From IMG/VR virus record IMGVR_UViG_3300039346_000011: 27,612 nt of DNA. One strand, given 5' to 3'. Below are positions 20,265 to 27,612 of this stretch, one piece after another. Every line of letters begins with the position of its first letter. Positions within the stretch are counted from its first letter, which is position 1. The stretch comes from a virus (lineage: Duplodnaviria; Heunggongvirae; Uroviricota; Caudoviricetes). The notes under the pieces are model-generated. The model saw only the letters and a program-made list of their open reading frames with translations, was not told where the DNA came from and did no database searches. Both the position numbers and the translations under genes were made by a program.

Positions 20265-20866
20265 TGGATAAAGCAATATTAAATAGTGGACTTGTTGCTA
20301 CAAAGGCAGGGGATATTACCGTTTATAACTATGATGGTGAAACTCGGGAATATATTTCCACTTCAAGTGAATATCTTGCCGTTGGTGTTGGTATCCCGGC
20401 ATATTCCTGTCTGGATGCACCAGGTATACATAAGGCGGGTTATGCTATCTGTCGTTCTGTGAATTTAAATTCATGGGAATATGTGCCAGACCATCGCGGT
20501 GAAATCGTCTATAACACCGAAACGGGAGAATCAAAACAAATCACAGCACCGGGTGATTACCCCGAAAATACAACCACTATTGCCCCATTAACGCCATACG
20601 ATAAATGGGATGGTGAGAAATGGGTGACCGATACTGAGGCACAGCATAGCGCCGCAGTAGACGCGGCAGAAGCACAGCGTCAGTCACTGATTGATGCTGC
20701 AATGGCTTCCATCGGTCTGATTCAGCTGAAATTACAGGCCGGACGGAAGCTGATGCAGGCAGAAACAACCCGGCTTAACGCTGTGCTGGATTACATTGAC
20801 GCGGTGACGGCAACAAATACCAGCACAGCGCCGGATGTCATCTGGCCTGAACTGCCGGAGGCGTAG
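20264..20866 (+). CDS. Tail fibre assembly protein (Tfa)
   Basis: 200 aa; TAATG overlap with the fibre gene; C-terminal ...DVIWPELPEA typical of Tfa chaperones. Confidence 0.8.
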   Translation: MDKAILNSGLVATKAGDITVYNYDGETREYISTSSEYLAVGVGIPAYSCLDAPGIHKAGYAICRSVNLNSWEYVPDHRGEIVYNTETGESKQITAPGDYPENTTTIAPLTPYDKWDGEKWVTDTEAQHSAAVDAAEAQRQSLIDAAMASIGLIQLKLQAGRKLMQAETTRLNAVLDYIDAVTATNTSTAPDVIWPELPEA

Positions 20867-21281
20867 GCCATTCAATATCTGGCGCACAGGAAGTATCGAC
20901 CAGTTCCAGTGCGTCCAGATAATCCAGCCACGAATTATATTGCGCCAGTTCCTCGCCTTTCAGACGACCAATAGCAGCTTTGCCAGGCCACTGATGGGTA
21001 TTGATGTAGGTATTGACTTCTGAAACCAAAGATATTTTTTTCATTTCAGCCGTCAACACCTCATCCTCTTTTGAAGGGGGTGGGGAATTAATCCATACTG
21101 GCCGTCCTGAACTGTCAGCGCCAATTTCTTTCCCTTCTGGATGCAGACCAAGAAATTGCTCATATGTTTCTCTGGTAATTTCAATAACATCATCAGGAAG
21201 CGTTCCCGCATCCTCATATTCTGGAAACAATTCTTGCAGATAAAAACTTTTACTTCCGGGTGAAAAGAATACTGAGTTCAT
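20838..21281 (-). CDS. Alternative tail fibre assembly protein (Tfa'), inverted orientation
   Basis: 147 aa on the minus strand, convergent and 3'-overlapping with Tfa; C-terminal ...DIEWPTPPAVQAR Tfa-type. Confidence 0.75.
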   Translation of the reverse strand: MNSVFFSPGSKSFYLQELFPEYEDAGTLPDDVIEITRETYEQFLGLHPEGKEIGADSSGRPVWINSPPPSKEDEVLTAEMKKISLVSEVNTYINTHQWPGKAAIGRLKGEELAQYNSWLDYLDALELVDTSCAPDIEWPTPPAVQAR

Positions 21282-21283
21282 TA

Positions 21284-21750
21284 TTACCGTCCAATGATTA
21301 ACGCTGAGACGCTGGTATCTGAAGGAAAGGCTGCATTCAGTGGTTTGTCGACTTTGAACACAATCGTATTATTCCCCCTGACAGCGGCAAAAGAACAAAC
21401 CGCCGTCGCGTATGAACCTGTAATATTACTGGATACACCACCATAAGCTGTTGTTGATACCAGAGGGATAACGCCCAGCACCTTATTAGGAAATACAAAG
21501 GGCAATGTGGCTGTGGCAATATAAGACTTATTAGAACCTGTGATGGCATAAGCATTATCAGTCATTCCATTCATCGCCACTGGGCCGCTTATACTTACAG
21601 TAACCATCTGAATGATTAGCCCGTCAGGTTGACGAATCACAAAATTTCCATTGCCACCAGTAACCGTCCAGAAAGACATATCAGGGATTTGGTTTTCCCC
21701 GTTGCCCACATTCCGTTTTGCCGCTTCTCCCAAACCAACGTTTATGAAAA
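21284..21750 (-). CDS. Alternative tail-fibre C-terminal module, silent in this orientation
   Basis: Minus-strand frame open from the right crossover site to 21284 (track ORF 21284..21778); encodes ...GLGEAAKRNVGNG... at the site, paralleling LGLGEGSA in the expressed fibre. Confidence 0.6.
21725..21750. repeat. Right crossover site of the invertible segment
   Basis: TTCTCCCAAACCAACGTTTATGAAAA; resembles the enteric Hin/Gin/Pin site consensus as I recall it and is the inverted partner of 19798..19823. Confidence 0.7.
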
Positions 21751-21804
21751 TGCAGAAATAACGAGCAAATGGCATCATTCCTGCTTTTGTCAGGGAGATC
21801 TACC

Positions 21805-21933
21805 ATGCTTATTGGCTATGTACGTGTGTCAACAAATGACCAGAACACAGATCTACAACGTAATGCGCTGAACTGTGCAGGATGCGAGCTGATTTTTGAA
21901 GACAAGATAAGCGGTACAAAGTCCGAGACCTAG
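21805..21933 (+). pseudogene. pin: Serine DNA invertase (Pin/Gin/Hin family), 42-codon N-terminal stub
   Basis: MLIGYVRVSTNDQNTDLQRNALNCAGCELIFEDKISGTKSET then TAG; matches the Pin/Hin N-terminus including the catalytic-Ser context (YVRVST), but full invertases are about 185-190 aa. Confidence 0.8.
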
Positions 21934-22028: not shown

Positions 22029-23918
22029 TTAATCGTGTTTTGGCCATACTTTCAATGCAATTTCCCCCAACTTTTTACCCCGCTCCAGGATTTCATCCTC
22101 ATCCCATTTATCCTTAACTATAAGTGGAATGTTCAGTCGTAGATTGGTGTGGACGATGAGAGCATCACGTTTTTTCAGAAATACAGCATTCTGAACAGAA
22201 CGGTTTACGCTAAGGTTAAGCAAAGTTAGATTTCCCAAAGTAGATATCGCTTGTTGCCGTTTCCTTACCAGTAGCTGTTCAGGGGTAAGATCGGTTCCAG
22301 ACAGAACAATTTGGTTCAATACCGTAGCATCTGAATTTGTCACCATACGACCATTTTCGAGAGGCCAACAGGAATACCAACTTTGAGGCATAAGATGATC
22401 GATATCGAGATTAGAAAGATTTGGAACATCAGGCTTTTCTGTCTTTACTTGGCGACAAAGTTCTCTTTCAAGTTCCGTTAACATTGAGCGCATTTTCGGT
22501 GCGTCGAGCCTGCCAGGATAAAGTGGAGCATTGATGCAAGCGTTGAGAAATTCTGAGTCACCAGGCCAACGTGAGGCTTCGCCATTTAAGTTATTGAGGA
22601 TATTACGTAACTCAACACTGGAAATTTCCGTTTTAGCCAAGTGCCGCAATACATTCATAAATACATTGTTGTAATTCTTTGGCGTCAGGCCACATACGGC
22701 TCTTCGTACTACGTAGGAGACAAGATCATTATACATGGCTGCTTTCTCATCATCAGCGATGTTAGCTATCGAAATGAACAAAGCAAGCGGATAAAGTGTC
22801 GTCACATCATAGTCTGCGATGCGATATCCAAAGTGTGAGATGGGGGTTGTGCCAAAACCATCAACCAATTCTTTATATTGTGATGCATATTGTTTGAGGC
22901 GCTTTACTTGCAGATCTGCTCGTTGTGAAGACAAGTCCTTACTTACATAATCACGATACTCATTGTAAAGGCGAGACAGATCAATTTCACGTTGCCTTTC
23001 TGATTGCAATGTCGCATGTACTAGCCACTCCATGCGTGGTTTATTAATACGTCCACGGCGTTGTTTTTCCGACCAGTATTTATCTTCAAAGCTCTTCCAC
23101 TCATTTTCATATAATTCAATAGCATTAATATTTTCATGCTCAGCGCACATAAAGATATAGTTGCGAATAAGATCCGTAGCATGAAGTTCCGCCCCTCGCC
23201 CATTTAATGTTTCAAAAATTATTTGGGCATCATCTTCAGCTTCGAGAAATATGCTTACCAGTTTCAGATCTGTTAAGACAGCCTCAATTAGAGCTACAGC
23301 ATTTTCTTGTGGTGAGTGGTTTTCTATTTTAATCCATTTTATAAAGGCTTCAGTAAAAAAACATAATGCTTCTAGTGATGGCGGGTGATTAAAATGCTTA
23401 CGCAACGTACCATGCTGCGTGAAACTATCAGAGAATACGTCCCGGAGATCGTCAATATTTTCAACATTAAAACTTTGAATAAAATGAGTTTGATCCCGAA
23501 AAGTTGGCCACAGTTTGAAGCGTTCTACTTCTTTATTTCGCATTGTGTCTTCGTTTGAGTTTTTCAGGCAAGGCGAAATGAGAGCCTCTAAGCTGGAAAG
23601 ATCCGTAGCACGTAATGCTAATCGGATGGATGCCAGAACATATTGAAGAGTGGTCAATCGTTGCTGACCATCAATAATATGTATGGAATCTACACCTAAT
23701 AATCCTTTTTTTGATTGAGGTTCCAGTACAACCGCACCAAGGAAATGGGGAGTTGGTTTTGTACCCGAGAGCCGGGATTGTACTTTCTCTAGGATATCCT
23801 CCAGTAGAGCTGACCACTGGTCTTGCTGAGTCCATACATAGGCACGTTGATAGAATGGAACACAGTATTGTCGGCGGTCTTGAAAAAGTTGTTGGACAGT
23901 TAGCGTCTCGGATTTCAT
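22029..23918 (-). CDS. DUF262/DUF1524 two-domain nuclease (GmrSD/BrxU/SspE-like type IV restriction-type protein)
   Basis: Track ORF 22029..23978; likely start is the ATG at 23918 (MKSETLTVQQLF...). N-terminal FYQRAYVW and IIDGQQRLTT (DGQQR) motifs; C-terminal DIDHLMPQSW His-Me-finger-like motif; low GC. Confidence 0.8.
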   Translation of the reverse strand: MKSETLTVQQLFQDRRQYCVPFYQRAYVWTQQDQWSALLEDILEKVQSRLSGTKPTPHFLGAVVLEPQSKKGLLGVDSIHIIDGQQRLTTLQYVLASIRLALRATDLSSLEALISPCLKNSNEDTMRNKEVERFKLWPTFRDQTHFIQSFNVENIDDLRDVFSDSFTQHGTLRKHFNHPPSLEALCFFTEAFIKWIKIENHSPQENAVALIEAVLTDLKLVSIFLEAEDDAQIIFETLNGRGAELHATDLIRNYIFMCAEHENINAIELYENEWKSFEDKYWSEKQRRGRINKPRMEWLVHATLQSERQREIDLSRLYNEYRDYVSKDLSSQRADLQVKRLKQYASQYKELVDGFGTTPISHFGYRIADYDVTTLYPLALFISIANIADDEKAAMYNDLVSYVVRRAVCGLTPKNYNNVFMNVLRHLAKTEISSVELRNILNNLNGEASRWPGDSEFLNACINAPLYPGRLDAPKMRSMLTELERELCRQVKTEKPDVPNLSNLDIDHLMPQSWYSCWPLENGRMVTNSDATVLNQIVLSGTDLTPEQLLVRKRQQAISTLGNLTLLNLSVNRSVQNAVFLKKRDALIVHTNLRLNIPLIVKDKWDEDEILERGKKLGEIALKVWPKHD

Positions 23919-24303
23919 GGTATACCTGTAAGCGACATTGTACAAAAGTGAGGAGTTAATCTGATTTAGAACAATCATTTTATTTTGCTATGATACAACG
24001 TATTTGTTACCGATTAAGTAAAAAACGCGTCTGAACGCTGACGTTTTAGGGCTTTACTGGTTATTCTTTCTTATCTCTTCATCATCCCATCGGCATCCTG
24101 TCGAGGTTGTTGACTTGTTGTTATTTATTTTGTCTAGGCGCTGTTTAATTATTATTGATAGAATTGATGGTGAGAGGTGATTGAAACCGTAGGCACGTCG
24201 TTTGCAAGGACGTGCTACGACTGGCTGGTGAACTTCCGATAGTGCGAGTATTGAATGATTTCCTACGTGCTAACTAGTGAACAAACAACTCTTCAGTAGA
24301 CTC

Positions 24304-24918: not shown

Positions 24919-25743
<825 letters not shown>

Positions 25744-25797
25744 TTTCGGAATGGAACTGGATTTCATATTGTGGTCAATTTTCGCACATGATGAGAG

Positions 25798-25822
25798 AGA
25801 GCCCGCGATAGTTGGCTCTTTT
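25798..25822 (+). terminator. Rho-independent terminator after the GIY-YIG gene
   Basis: AGAGCC-CGCGATAGTT-GGCTCT followed by TTTT. Confidence 0.45.
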
Positions 25823-25953
25823 GTGCAAAGTCTGACCAATATTTATTCCCCTCACTGGACGTTACACTCAGACTATCCACTGCTGACATGCCAGTGATTT
25901 AAAAGGAATGCTGCTGATTTAAATAGCGAAAACTTCACTAAAGAGGATGTAAA

Positions 25954-26247
25954 ATGACACTACCCAAGTTCAGGAATGACCTACAAGTTGAAGCTAATTA
26001 CTCTATCAATCAAGCCCGTGAAATGGTTGGGAAAACGGTGAAATCTGTCCAGATTGGTTTTCAGAAAACTGGAGTACAGGTTCATCAGACTGAAATGCTA
26101 ATCATCACGTTTACAGATGACACTCAACTTGCCATCTCAACAGGTTCAAACGTTGTAAACATAACGTCGTTAATTGGGCGTGGTGGCAGTTGCGAGCTTA
26201 AGCCTGCGGATTTTCACGTAGATTTTGATTTGACCTGGCAAAGATGA
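25954..26247 (+). CDS. Hypothetical 97-aa protein
   Basis: AGAGGA SD 7 nt upstream of the ATG; no recognisable motif; followed by a GC-rich inverted repeat. Confidence 0.5.
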   Translation: MTLPKFRNDLQVEANYSINQAREMVGKTVKSVQIGFQKTGVQVHQTEMLIITFTDDTQLAISTGSNVVNITSLIGRGGSCELKPADFHVDFDLTWQR

Positions 26248-26254
26248 CAAATCC

Positions 26255-26299
26255 GGCCGTGCCAGCGGCCTTTTTCATGCTCGTCCTGCTGGCACGGCC
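26255..26299. terminator. GC-rich inverted repeat between convergent genes (putative bidirectional terminator)
   Basis: GGCCGTGCCAGC ... GCTGGCACGGCC perfect 12-bp inverted repeat with 21-nt spacer containing TTTTT. Confidence 0.4.
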
Positions 26300-26334
26300 G
26301 CAAACCTAATCCTGTAAGGTGACACTTAAGCGTG

Positions 26335-27123
26335 TCAGAACTGCGCAATAACAACCTTCACTTTTCCTTCCGCGTCTTTAGATTCCAGATCGGTTTTCAC
26401 GCCCAAAGGATTATTTATGTAGCAATCCGGGTCATATACAAACAAGATCAACGTATCGCAGTCTTGGTGAGCGCGGTAGCGCGCCATATCAATAAGCAAC
26501 TCTCCACCAACTTTACCCGCTCCCAGAGATTCACGGGTTTTCTTCACCTCTATCACAATTTTCTCTTTTTTCAAAAGAAAGTCCTGTCTTGAGGCCGCGC
26601 CCGCAAAGCTGGGGGTATACTCTTCCGCCCTAATATCATTAAAATGAAGCGTCAGCAGTGCATAAATCAAATCCTGTACGTCATACTCATCATTAACTTC
26701 AAGCGGCGCACGGCCGTTGTACCGCCTCTTTAACTGGCGAACAAAGGTCGGAAACCTGTTAAGAATATTAAGTACGAGGCTCAGCGGCGAACCTTCTTGA
26801 GGAGTATTAGTACTGACAGCAGAGTGCGCAAGATCATCTCTCGCCGCATCAAACAACGGTTTATAACTTTTGATCAGTGTATTGTAATTAGAAGACCACC
26901 TGCTGTTTACAGTATTGAAGTCATTGTAATAATCAGACTCTTTTCCGTAGCTGTCCTCTATTAACTTTTTCACTCTGGCGATCCAGTTTTTATATTTACC
27001 AGAATCAACATAGGTTTCCATAGTGTGAGTGAGAACGTTCTGCGCAGTATATTTTGTGGAAATGAGCGCATCGTAATCTTTCTCAAGCGCCCTAAATCTT
27101 TCTTCCAGTTGTAGATTTGTCAT
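26335..27123 (-). CDS. Hypothetical protein with C-terminal PD-(D/E)xK-like nuclease motif
   Basis: 262 aa; GGAAGG SD; N-terminal helical region; C-terminal ...EYDVQDLIYALL...RQDFLLKKEKIVIEVKK... has E / D / E-x-K spacing reminiscent of the restriction-endonuclease fold. Low GC. Confidence 0.6.
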   Translation of the reverse strand: MTNLQLEERFRALEKDYDALISTKYTAQNVLTHTMETYVDSGKYKNWIARVKKLIEDSYGKESDYYNDFNTVNSRWSSNYNTLIKSYKPLFDAARDDLAHSAVSTNTPQEGSPLSLVLNILNRFPTFVRQLKRRYNGRAPLEVNDEYDVQDLIYALLTLHFNDIRAEEYTPSFAGAASRQDFLLKKEKIVIEVKKTRESLGAGKVGGELLIDMARYRAHQDCDTLILFVYDPDCYINNPLGVKTDLESKDAEGKVKVVIAQF

Positions 27124-27317
27124 AGTGCCTTCCAGGCTGTATAGTCGGATAACAAGGTCTGTGCGTATGGAAATTCTACCATACTTAGCCTTCTTTTCTT
27201 CACACTGGGCGTAACAGCCATTCTGTCCAGCCCCCCTAGCGTGATCTTACCTGCTGCGGCATTCGGTTGTCTTAGCTCCGGAATAATATTCGGAGATGCA
27301 TAACTGTCCAGTGCCAT
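27120..27317 (-). CDS. Small hypothetical protein (65 aa), possibly coupled to the downstream 262-aa gene
   Basis: Stop TGA overlaps the ATG of 26335..27123 (ATGA); weak G-rich SD; no motif. Could be a spurious ORF in a 5' leader. Confidence 0.3.
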   Translation of the reverse strand: MALDSYASPNIIPELRQPNAAAGKITLGGLDRMAVTPSVKKRRLSMVEFPYAQTLLSDYTAWKAL

Positions 27318-27495
27318 ACGCGCCCCAATCCTATATATCTACTTCATAGCTTTTCAGTAAGGAATGAATATATTAATTTCTGTGATGATTAGTATCGGAG
27401 GGTACGAATGACTATATATCGCTCATAGCAAACGCTCACATCTGTTATGGTTAGAAAGCAGGAAGAGGGGGACAGGCTACGGTATAAGAAAAGTG

Positions 27496-27612
27496 TGAAC
27501 CGCCCCGGGTTTCCTGGAGAGTGTTTTATCTGTGAACTCAGGCTGCCAGATCATCGTTTCCGATGGAAGCATAATAAGCTTTTTCTGCTTCTGCCGGAGG
27601 AGTATGGCCCAG
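27496..27612 (-). mobile_element. IS3-family insertion sequence (IS629/IS1203-like), terminal 117 bp: inverted-repeat end plus 3' end of transposase orfB; element continues past window end
   Basis: Plus strand TGAACCGCCCCGGGTTTCCTGGAGA from 27496 shares TGAACCGCCCCGG-N3-TCCTGGAGA with the terminus at 94; same orientation as the left copy. Confidence 0.75.
27538..27612 (-). CDS. IS3-family transposase OrfB, C-terminal fragment (truncated by window edge)
   Basis: Minus-strand frame from the window edge encodes ...LGHTPPAEAEKAYYASIGNDDLAA then stop (plus TCA at 27538-27540), just inside the inverted repeat. Confidence 0.6.
   Translation of the reverse strand: MGHTPPAEAEKAYYASIGNDDLAA

What the first reader, a model, noticed from the sequence alone, without database searches (positions are those of the whole stretch)
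26335..27317. Translationally coupled 65-aa + 262-aa gene pair with PD-(D/E)xK-like motif
ATGA stop/start overlap between the two ORFs suggests an operon. The larger protein combines a helical N-terminal region with a C-terminal E...D...E-V-K pattern typical of restriction-endonuclease-fold nucleases. This resembles toxin/antitoxin or abortive-infection effector layouts, but the small ORF is weakly supported.
Basis: inference. Interest (0 to 1): 0.6.

Follow-up and report, generated by a model that had tools for sequence, protein, structure and literature searches.

The report
Stand-alone prophage nuclease, no small partner
The 262-aa gene is a real, widely conserved two-domain nuclease sitting among anti-phage genes at the end of an E. 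coli prophage and is probably a single-protein phage-defence candidate, whereas the 65-aa "partner" ORF is an unconserved reading frame lying over the nuclease gene's own promoter.

Summary
Both ORFs and the ATGA overlap exist, on the minus strand (262 aa: 26335-27123; 65 aa: 27120-27317). The 262-aa protein is a genuine PD-(D/E)xK nuclease: Pfam REase_DpnII-MboI (E 9.5e-49), invariant E146/D181/E192-V-K194, and a restriction-endonuclease fold in the AlphaFold model. The 65-aa ORF is not a gene. It has no homologues outside this E. coli locus. In the closest relatives its ATG is lost and the frame is broken by 1-, 2-, 5- and 13-nt indels and stops. It overlies conserved non-coding blocks, including a TGnTAGAAT extended -10 and a GGAAGG ribosome-binding site. 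The nuclease is a stand-alone gene: no neighbour is conserved across about 80 loci from many phyla. Its roughly 100-aa N-terminal helical domain has no Pfam family and recurs fused to HEPN, TIR or REase effectors. The TIR version is PADLOC's untested candidate PDC-S35. The nuclease domain's nearest solved relative is the Argonaute-associated nuclease AgaN. In this window the gene lies in a variable prophage cargo slot beside a type IV restriction enzyme and PD-T4-3. The best reading is an autoinhibited sensor-nuclease for phage defence; this is untested. The toxin/antitoxin pairing is not supported.

The parts
26335..27123 (-). 262-aa gene (stop codon included): N-terminal helical domain plus C-terminal PD-(D/E)xK nuclease; identical to RefSeq WP_000183405.1
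26821..27123 (-). N-terminal domain, aa 1-101: helical bundle with a beta-hairpin (aa 25-38). It has no Pfam family and is shared with HEPN, TIR (PDC-S35) and REase fusion proteins.
26338..26787 (-). C-terminal nuclease domain, aa 113-262 (Pfam PF18742 REase_DpnII-MboI matches aa 117-261)
26542..26583 (-). Catalytic D-x10-E-V-K core: D181 (26581-26583), E192 (26548-26550), V193, K194 (26542-26544). The first-helix acidic residue E146 is at 26686-26688.
   Evidence: Invariant in 27 homologues; same D-EVK motif and spacing as EcbAgaN D298/E309/V310/K311 (PMC13535254); codons read directly
27128..27133 (-). GGAAGG ribosome-binding site, 4 nt before the ATG of the 262-aa gene
   Evidence: GGAAGG/GGATGG kept in relatives
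27173..27181 (-). TGGTAGAAT: extended -10 promoter-like element, about 50 nt upstream of the ATG. It is conserved as TGnTAGAAT, and only the n varies among genera.
   Evidence: inferred promoter. The simple two-hexamer scan did not list it.
27199..27230 (-). Conserved upstream block CTGGACAGAATGGCTGTTACGCCCAGTGTGAA (imperfect inverted repeat GGAC-N-GTCC/GCCC). Possible operator or second promoter element. Homology with Pantoea and Pectobacterium loci ends here.
27120..27317 (-). 65-aa ORF of the finding: judged spurious. It overlies the promoter and 5' leader of the nuclease gene.
26254..26300 (.). 13-bp perfect inverted repeat (21-nt spacer) between the convergent 97-aa and 262-aa genes. The terminator-like sites found by the scan (26253-26270) lie in its left arm; the full 13-bp repeat is read here as a possible bidirectional terminator.
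25954..26247 (+). 97-aa conserved hypothetical gene, convergent with the nuclease. It travels with the nuclease in a 1.6-kb cassette in some Enterobacterales but is not an obligate partner.

Best explanation
The 262-aa gene is an autonomous, single-gene module. It is transcribed from its own extended -10 promoter and encodes a two-domain protein. The N-terminal helical domain of about 100 aa is proposed to act as a regulatory or sensor switch. The C-terminal PD-(D/E)xK DNase belongs to the DpnII-MboI/AgaN clade. The proposed mechanism is as follows. In uninfected cells the N-domain keeps the nuclease inactive. A phage-derived cue releases it, possibly through oligomerisation, and the nuclease then degrades DNA, either phage DNA or all DNA in an abortive-infection mode. 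Shown here: the gene, its nuclease fold and catalytic residues, the lack of any conserved partner, the modular N-domain with swappable HEPN, TIR and REase effectors, and its residence in a prophage defence-cargo slot. Inferred: anti-phage function, autoinhibition, the nature of the trigger, and the DNA substrate. The 65-aa ORF plays no part.
Against: No experiment exists on this family. PDC-S35 is itself untested. PADLOC has no full-length model for this protein. No homologue was found in the 50,697 deposited phage genomes by tblastn. Many neighbours in distant taxa are housekeeping genes. The N-domain fold resembles only generic helical bundles, so its role as a sensor or autoinhibitor rests on analogy and domain architecture. 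The two domains' relative placement in the model is uncertain (pTM 0.56).
Confidence: 0.55

Rival explanations
1. Translationally coupled two-gene toxin/antitoxin or Abi pair: the 65-aa product neutralises or regulates the 262-aa nuclease.
For: The ATGA overlap exists. Some GenBank submitters annotate the 65-aa ORF as a hypothetical protein. An ORF that long ending at the ATGA occurs in only about 1% of shuffles.
Against: ORF65 has only 10 database clusters, all fragments or variants from the same E. coli locus. tblastn finds nothing significant beside 80 nuclease homologues. In Serratia, where the nuclease is 91% identical, the ATG is ACG and the region has a 13-nt insertion and 2-nt and 1-nt deletions. 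There are stops in frame in Pantoea and Enterobacter. Homology with Pantoea and Pectobacterium ends inside the ORF. The ORF has a weak ribosome-binding site, and PGAP does not call it. Even its last 20 codons change frame relative to the nuclease in three lineages.
Confidence: 0.03
2. A solitary sequence-specific or modification-dependent (type IV-like) restriction endonuclease, in which the N-domain serves DNA recognition or dimerisation. It cuts foreign DNA directly and needs no methyltransferase.
Against: The same N-domain is fused to TIR and HEPN effectors that do not act on DNA. This argues that it is a regulatory or sensor module and not a DNA reader. There is no match to the DpnII family proper at E<=1. 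The fold is a plain helical bundle, unlike known modified-base readers. The closest solved sequence relative is a non-specific, activated DNase.
Confidence: 0.17
3. An effector that works with a partner encoded elsewhere, or with the neighbouring 97-aa gene. The N-domain would dock onto a sensor or bind a signal, as AgaN docks onto a long-B Argonaute.
For: AgaN is the closest characterised relative and needs pAgo. One N-domain protein carries an EAD7 adaptor domain. The 97-aa gene lies next to or near the nuclease in E. coli, Serratia, Enterobacter, Kosakonia, Erwinia and Citrobacter, and a 1.6-kb cassette with both genes is shared at 89% nt identity.
Against: No partner is conserved across 80 loci. 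The 97-aa family has 20 clusters against 2483 for the nuclease. Its orientation and distance vary (convergent, divergent, 2.4 kb apart). It occurs without the nuclease within the 4 kb fetched on each side in Pantoea. Nuclease genes at 85-89% identity lack it. The AgaN N-domain does not match this protein: the PADLOC and PDB hits cover the C-terminal part only.
Confidence: 0.15
4. An accessory nuclease unrelated to immunity (for example in mobile-element maintenance, recombination or repair), or a decaying passenger gene.
For: Copies are often on plasmids (367 records, 301 conjugative) and near integrases or resolvases. Truncated remnants and IS-disrupted copies are common.
Against: Catalytic residues are invariant and the full-length architecture is kept down to about 40% identity across phyla. 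Effector swapping among TIR, HEPN and REase is typical of conflict systems. Neighbours in the best-resolved contexts are defence genes.
Confidence: 0.1

Closest known systems
EcbAgaN, the nuclease of the long-B Argonaute BPAN system (PDB 23wq; PADLOC Aga_Helical-REase models)
   Same: Helical N-terminal domain followed by a C-terminal PD-(D/E)xK nuclease with a D-x10-E-V-K motif. The nuclease domains are related by sequence (profile E 3.4e-6; PADLOC 1e-26). In AgaN the N-domain autoinhibits a nuclease domain that is toxic on its own.
   Different: The N-terminal domains do not match; hits cover only aa ~100-258 of this protein. This protein is 262 aa against 390 aa. No Argonaute gene is nearby or conserved with the family.
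PDC-S35 (PADLOC phage defence candidate, single gene; Payne et al. 2024, bioRxiv 10.1101/2024.01.29.577857)
   Same: Homologous N-terminal domain of about 100 aa (hhalign 97.4%; a faint direct hit of the 262-aa protein to PDLC05005). Both have a single-gene layout.
   Different: PDC-S35 carries a CAP12/Pycsar-type TIR effector instead of a nuclease. It is a prediction only, listed among 145 untested candidates.
Pfam PF18742 REase_DpnII-MboI domain family
   Same: The C-terminal domain is a full-length, high-scoring member (165 bits against a cut-off of 27).
   Different: The domain family says nothing about the N-domain or the biological role. No cognate methyltransferase is present, so this is not a type II restriction-modification system.
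PD-T4-3 and DUF262/GmrSD-type type IV restriction enzyme (the neighbouring cargo genes)
   Same: Single-gene nucleases carried in the same prophage cargo slot. PD-T4-3 is experimentally active against T-even phages.
   Different: Unrelated folds (GIY-YIG; DUF262/HNH-type) with no sequence similarity to the 262-aa protein.

Membership tests
PD-(D/E)xK nucleases, DpnII-MboI clade (Pfam PF18742) | Profile match above the curated cut-off | tested here: met
   165.3 bits against cut-off 27, aa 117-261, profile 3-149/150
PD-(D/E)xK nucleases, DpnII-MboI clade (Pfam PF18742) | Catalytic acidic residues and lysine (E...D...ExK) conserved on a restriction-endonuclease alpha/beta core | tested here: met
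PD-(D/E)xK nucleases, DpnII-MboI clade (Pfam PF18742) | Nuclease activity | not testable with these tools
   Needs biochemistry
Type II toxin-antitoxin / translationally coupled two-gene Abi pair | Small partner gene conserved and syntenic with the toxin gene across relatives | tested here: not met
   ORF65 is absent or disrupted in all non-E. coli relatives and has no homologues elsewhere
Type II restriction-modification system (DpnII/MboI-like) | Adjacent cognate DNA methyltransferase | tested here: not met
   None in the window next to the gene. No methyltransferase family is recurrent among 150 neighbours.
Type II restriction-modification system (DpnII/MboI-like) | Membership of the DpnII endonuclease family proper | tested here: not met
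   Only PF18742 was reported at E<=1. That a separate Pfam family exists for DpnII itself is from memory.
BPAN (long-B pAgo + AgaN) | Adjacent long-B Argonaute gene | tested here: not met
   No large conserved neighbour in 88 loci; none in the window region
BPAN (long-B pAgo + AgaN) | AgaN-type N-terminal domain | tested here: not met
   PADLOC and PDB matches are confined to the nuclease domain
PDC-S35 (PADLOC candidate) | Full-length match to the PDC-S35 profile, including the TIR domain | tested here: not met
   Only a faint N-domain hit (E 0.023, aa 36-78). True PDC-S35 proteins P0186 and P0207 score 1e-76 to 1e-85.
PDC-S35 (PADLOC candidate) | Shared N-terminal domain | tested here: met
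   hmmsearch E 1.7e-11 and 2.1e-9; hhalign 97.4% over 106 columns
Anti-phage defence system (generic) | Protection against phage when expressed | not testable with these tools
   Only context and architecture evidence is available

The most novel reading that the evidence does not exclude
The unnamed N-terminal helical domain of about 100 aa defines a broad, so far undescribed family of single-polypeptide immune proteins with interchangeable effectors: PD-(D/E)xK DNase, HEPN RNase, TIR NADase. In this family the small domain itself senses infection and switches the effector on. The 262-aa prophage protein would then be an autonomous sensor-nuclease, a partner-free counterpart of Argonaute-dependent AgaN.
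Probability: 0.4. Interest if true: 0.6.

Novelty: new variant of a known kind. Interest (0 to 1): 0.42.

Why it matters
If the protein is an autonomous sensor-nuclease, it adds a compact single-gene anti-phage candidate. About 2% of complete E. coli genomes carry it (113 of 5426), and relatives occur on many conjugative plasmids and across bacterial phyla. It also points to a small unannotated domain that appears to control three different toxic effector types. That domain would be a tractable model for how minimal immune proteins are kept off and switched on. For annotation, the family name "malate dehydrogenase" found in many records is wrong, and the 65-aa ORF should not be called as a gene.

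Tried and rejected
- Rfam scan of 25700-27612 at E<=1 found nothing.
- RNAalifold on the 5' leader of 8 relatives found no conserved structure.
- Repeat search found no tandem or RNA-antitoxin-like repeats upstream.
- The generic promoter scan did not list the conserved TGnTAGAAT. It listed a TGGACA-16-TATTAT site inside ORF65 (27310-27283) that is not conserved in relatives.
- tblastn against deposited phage genomes found no match.
- I tested whether the DUF4145 neighbour in Pectobacterium shares the N-domain. It does not.
- Literature searches for DpnII-MboI, accession numbers and PDC-S35 found nothing relevant. The AgaN term search was swamped by unrelated papers.
- A conserved 20-codon mini-ORF (MVEF...) was considered and rejected. 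Its frame relative to the nuclease differs in three lineages through 1-nt and 5-nt indels, and its ATG is part of the TGnTAGAAT block.

Full report
**1. What is in the sequence**

The finding lies on the minus strand. A 262-aa ORF runs 27123 to 26335, and a 65-aa ORF runs 27317 to 27120. The stop of the small ORF overlaps the ATG of the large one as ATGA. The overlap is less informative than it looks. The large gene begins ATG-ACA, so a TGA exists in that frame whatever lies upstream. Relatives also begin ATGAC or ATGAT. An ORF of at least 65 codons ending there arises in about 1% of shuffles of the upstream 372 nt. In this window, 65 of the 100 ORFs of at least 65 aa are nested in longer ORFs.

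**2. Where the window comes from**

The 1.7 kb around the finding is 100% identical to E. coli genomes including ATCC 11775, S88, UM146, IHE3034 and APEC O18. It is present nearly full-length in 113 of 5426 complete genomes. In ATCC 11775 the gene (WP_000183405.1, annotated "hypothetical protein") is the last gene before ssrA, the tmRNA gene.

The first 20 kb of the window are about 97% identical to the structural genes of Shigella phages SfII, SfI and SfIV. The finding therefore sits in the cargo region between the tail-fibre/invertase segment and the prophage end. That region also holds three other items:
- a DUF262 type IV restriction enzyme at 22029-23978, a full-length PADLOC mREase_IV match;
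- a DinI-like pseudogene;
- PD-T4-3 at 24937-25743 (E 8.6e-137).

PD-T4-3 is an experimentally active anti-phage gene (PMC12409345). In related prophages integrated elsewhere, the same slot carries different cargo: a PD-T4-3-like gene plus hypotheticals, a TrlF-family ATPase, or DUF262 plus a hypothetical. It is a variable slot that repeatedly holds defence genes. In this window an IS3 element begins near 27496, and in two other strains an IS3 interrupts the nuclease gene itself.

**3. The 65-aa ORF is not a gene**

- PGAP does not call it in the identical locus.
- A search of 5.8 billion proteins finds only 10 clusters, all variants or fragments from this E. coli locus. The nuclease has 2483 homologues.
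- tblastn of the 65-aa sequence against 80 loci that encode nuclease homologues gives nothing significant outside E. coli.
- In Serratia marcescens the nuclease is 91% identical, yet the ORF's ATG is ACG and the region carries a 13-nt insertion, a 2-nt deletion and a 1-nt deletion.
- In Pantoea and Enterobacter, where the nuclease is 87-89% identical, the frame contains stops.
- DNA homology with Pantoea and Pectobacterium ends at about window 27230-27234, inside the ORF.

What is conserved upstream is a set of nucleotide blocks, not a reading frame:
- TGnTAGAAT at 27181-27173. Only the n varies among genera, as expected for an extended -10 promoter element and not for a codon.
- A CACAGA block.
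- The ribosome-binding site GGAAGG at 27133-27128.
- Further upstream, an imperfect inverted repeat CTGGACAGAAT...GCCCAGTGTGAA at 27230-27199.

Even the last 20 codons of the ORF lie in three different frames relative to the nuclease in three lineages. No Rfam family, conserved RNA structure or repeat array was found upstream.

**4. The 262-aa protein**

Residues 117-261 match Pfam PF18742 REase_DpnII-MboI at E 9.5e-49. In an alignment of 27 homologues down to 40% identity, the following are invariant: D145, E146, Y147, D148, E167, E168, D181, E192, K194, K195.

The AlphaFold model has pLDDT 81.7. It shows:
- an N-terminal helical domain (aa 1-101) with a beta-hairpin;
- a disordered linker;

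The N-domain matches only generic helical bundles in that search.

By sequence, the only solved relative is EcbAgaN, the nuclease of a long-B Argonaute system (E 3.4e-6, nuclease domain only). PADLOC's Aga_Helical-REase models likewise match only the C-terminal part. In EcbAgaN the catalytic motif is D298/E309/V310/K311, the same D-x10-EVK spacing as D181/E192/V193/K194 here. Its alpha-helical N-domain keeps an intrinsically toxic nuclease domain autoinhibited until Argonaute binds (PMC13535254).

**5. A stand-alone gene**

Genome scans returned 80 loci. They come from Enterobacterales and from other Pseudomonadota, Planctomycetota, Bacteroidota, Cyanobacteria, Clostridia, Acidobacteria and a few archaeal MAGs. 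Many of these align over most of the protein's length.

Clustering all ORFs within 3 kb found no neighbour family in more than 6 of 88 loci. Among 150 immediate neighbours, no Pfam family occurs more than 4 times. No methyltransferase and no Argonaute recurs. Neighbours do include integrases, PIN, Abi_2/AbiD, GajA, Old, type I specificity subunits, a HEPN protein and Eco47II, alongside housekeeping genes.

Enterobacterial plasmids hold 64-69% identical copies in 367 records, 301 of them conjugative. In the example examined, the gene lies between a resolvase and an Abi_2 gene. No copy was found in deposited phage genomes, although a PHROG of unknown function matches the nuclease domain.

**6. 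The N-terminal domain is a shared module**

A profile of aa 1-112 was searched against 1.84 billion representative proteins and found 308 hits at E<=1e-3. The N-domain has no Pfam family of its own. Among the 64 hits of at least 185 aa, the C-terminal parts are:

| C-terminal domain | Number of hits |
|---|---|
| HEPN-type (RiboL-PSP, DUF4145, HEPN) | at least 10 |
| CAP12/Pycsar-type TIR | 8 |
| TIR_2 | 1 |
| REase_DpnII-MboI | 6 |
| Hypoth_Ymh | 2 |
| GNAT | 1 |
| EAD7 | 1 |

The TIR fusions are full-length matches (1e-76 to 1e-85) to PADLOC's single-gene candidate PDC-S35. PDC-S35 is one of 145 untested candidates predicted by "guilt by embedding". Profile-profile comparison gives 97.4% (TIR fusion) and 98.4% (HEPN fusion) probability over about 100 columns. 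One small domain joined to three alternative toxic effector types is the architecture typical of immune or conflict proteins. It argues that the N-domain regulates or senses, and does not read DNA sequence.

**7. Most likely mechanism**

The protein is most likely an autonomous, autoinhibited sensor-nuclease, expressed from its own promoter. The N-domain would hold the PD-(D/E)xK domain off until an infection cue releases it, after which DNA is degraded.

- Shown: the gene, its fold and catalytic residues, its autonomy, the domain modularity, and the defence-cargo context.
- Inferred: the defence function, autoinhibition (by analogy with AgaN), the trigger, and the substrate.

I put this at about 0.55. 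The rivals are:
- a solitary type IV-like or sequence-specific restriction enzyme (about 0.17), weakened by the TIR and HEPN siblings;
- an effector that needs a partner encoded elsewhere or the 97-aa neighbour (about 0.15);
- a non-immune accessory nuclease (about 0.1);
- the proposed 65-aa/262-aa pair (about 0.03).

**8. The 97-aa neighbour**

The convergent 97-aa gene (25954-26247) is a real, conserved, Enterobacterales-restricted gene with 20 clusters and no Pfam family. A 1.6-kb cassette (window 25813-27403) containing both genes is shared with Serratia marcescens at 89% nt identity. There it sits between a LysR-type and a LacI-type regulator gene.

The two genes are also close in Enterobacter, Kosakonia, Erwinia (divergent orientation) and Citrobacter (2.4 kb apart). 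However, the 97-aa gene has no nuclease gene within the 4 kb fetched on each side in Pantoea. Most nuclease genes lack it, including ones 85-89% identical. It is at most an occasional companion, not an antitoxin.

**9. Novelty and verdict**

The domain family of the nuclease is known, and the protein exists in databases as a hypothetical protein, often misnamed "malate dehydrogenase". The following appear undescribed in the libraries and papers I could search:
- the stand-alone architecture;
- its link to PDC-S35 through an unnamed N-domain;
- the REase/HEPN/TIR effector swapping.

I rate it a new variant of a known kind, namely single-protein modular defence candidates. Interest is moderate. 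It is a good experimental candidate rather than a surprise, and the specific claim of the finding (a coupled pair) is wrong.

Noticed in passing
window 25954-26247 (+); L083/L084 6919-7212; L091, L094, L096: A 97-aa conserved hypothetical gene (20 clusters, Enterobacterales only, no Pfam family) recurs next to or near the nuclease gene in six genera, in varying orientation. With the nuclease it forms a 1.6-kb cassette shared at 89% nt identity between the E. coli prophage and a Serratia chromosomal intergenic site. How the cassette moves is unknown; no flanking repeats were identified.
   Followed up: partly
window 27199-27230 (-): A conserved upstream block with an imperfect inverted repeat (GGAC-N-GTCC/GCCC) and a second xAGAAT motif lies about 45 nt upstream of the putative -10. 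It is kept from E. coli to plasmid copies at 64% protein identity. It may be an operator or a second promoter.
   Followed up: partly
window 22029-23978 (-) and 24937-25743 (+): Two recognised single-gene defence nucleases lie in the same cargo slot: a DUF262/GmrSD-like type IV restriction enzyme (full-length PADLOC mREase_IV match) and PD-T4-3 (E 8.6e-137). PGAP starts PD-T4-3 at 24970, not 24937. A frameshifted DinI-like pseudogene lies between them in ATCC 11775.
   Followed up: partly
window ~27496-27612; L002 5005-6218: An IS3-family element is inserted about 370 nt upstream of the nuclease gene in this window. In strains FY26 and NCTC11151 an IS3 instead splits the nuclease gene. Many IncF-type plasmids carry only N-terminal remnants (aa 1-70) of a homologue.
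   Followed up: no
window 20838-21927: Oppositely oriented alternative tail-fibre and assembly genes lie next to a truncated recombinase (pinE-like) remnant. This looks like a tail-fibre inversion switch that is probably frozen in this prophage. Related prophages keep an intact pinE.
   Followed up: no
family-wide: Many GenBank records name this nuclease family 'malate dehydrogenase', an evident propagated annotation error. Some gene calls add 14-29 spurious N-terminal residues by starting at the ATG inside the TGnTAGAAT promoter block.
   Followed up: partly
protein aa 167-179 (window 26587-26625, minus strand): The loop EEYTPSFAGAASR is almost invariant in sequence (E167, E168, P171, S172, R179), yet it is the least confident part of the nuclease domain in the model (pLDDT about 41). 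It may be a regulated or substrate-binding loop.
   Followed up: no
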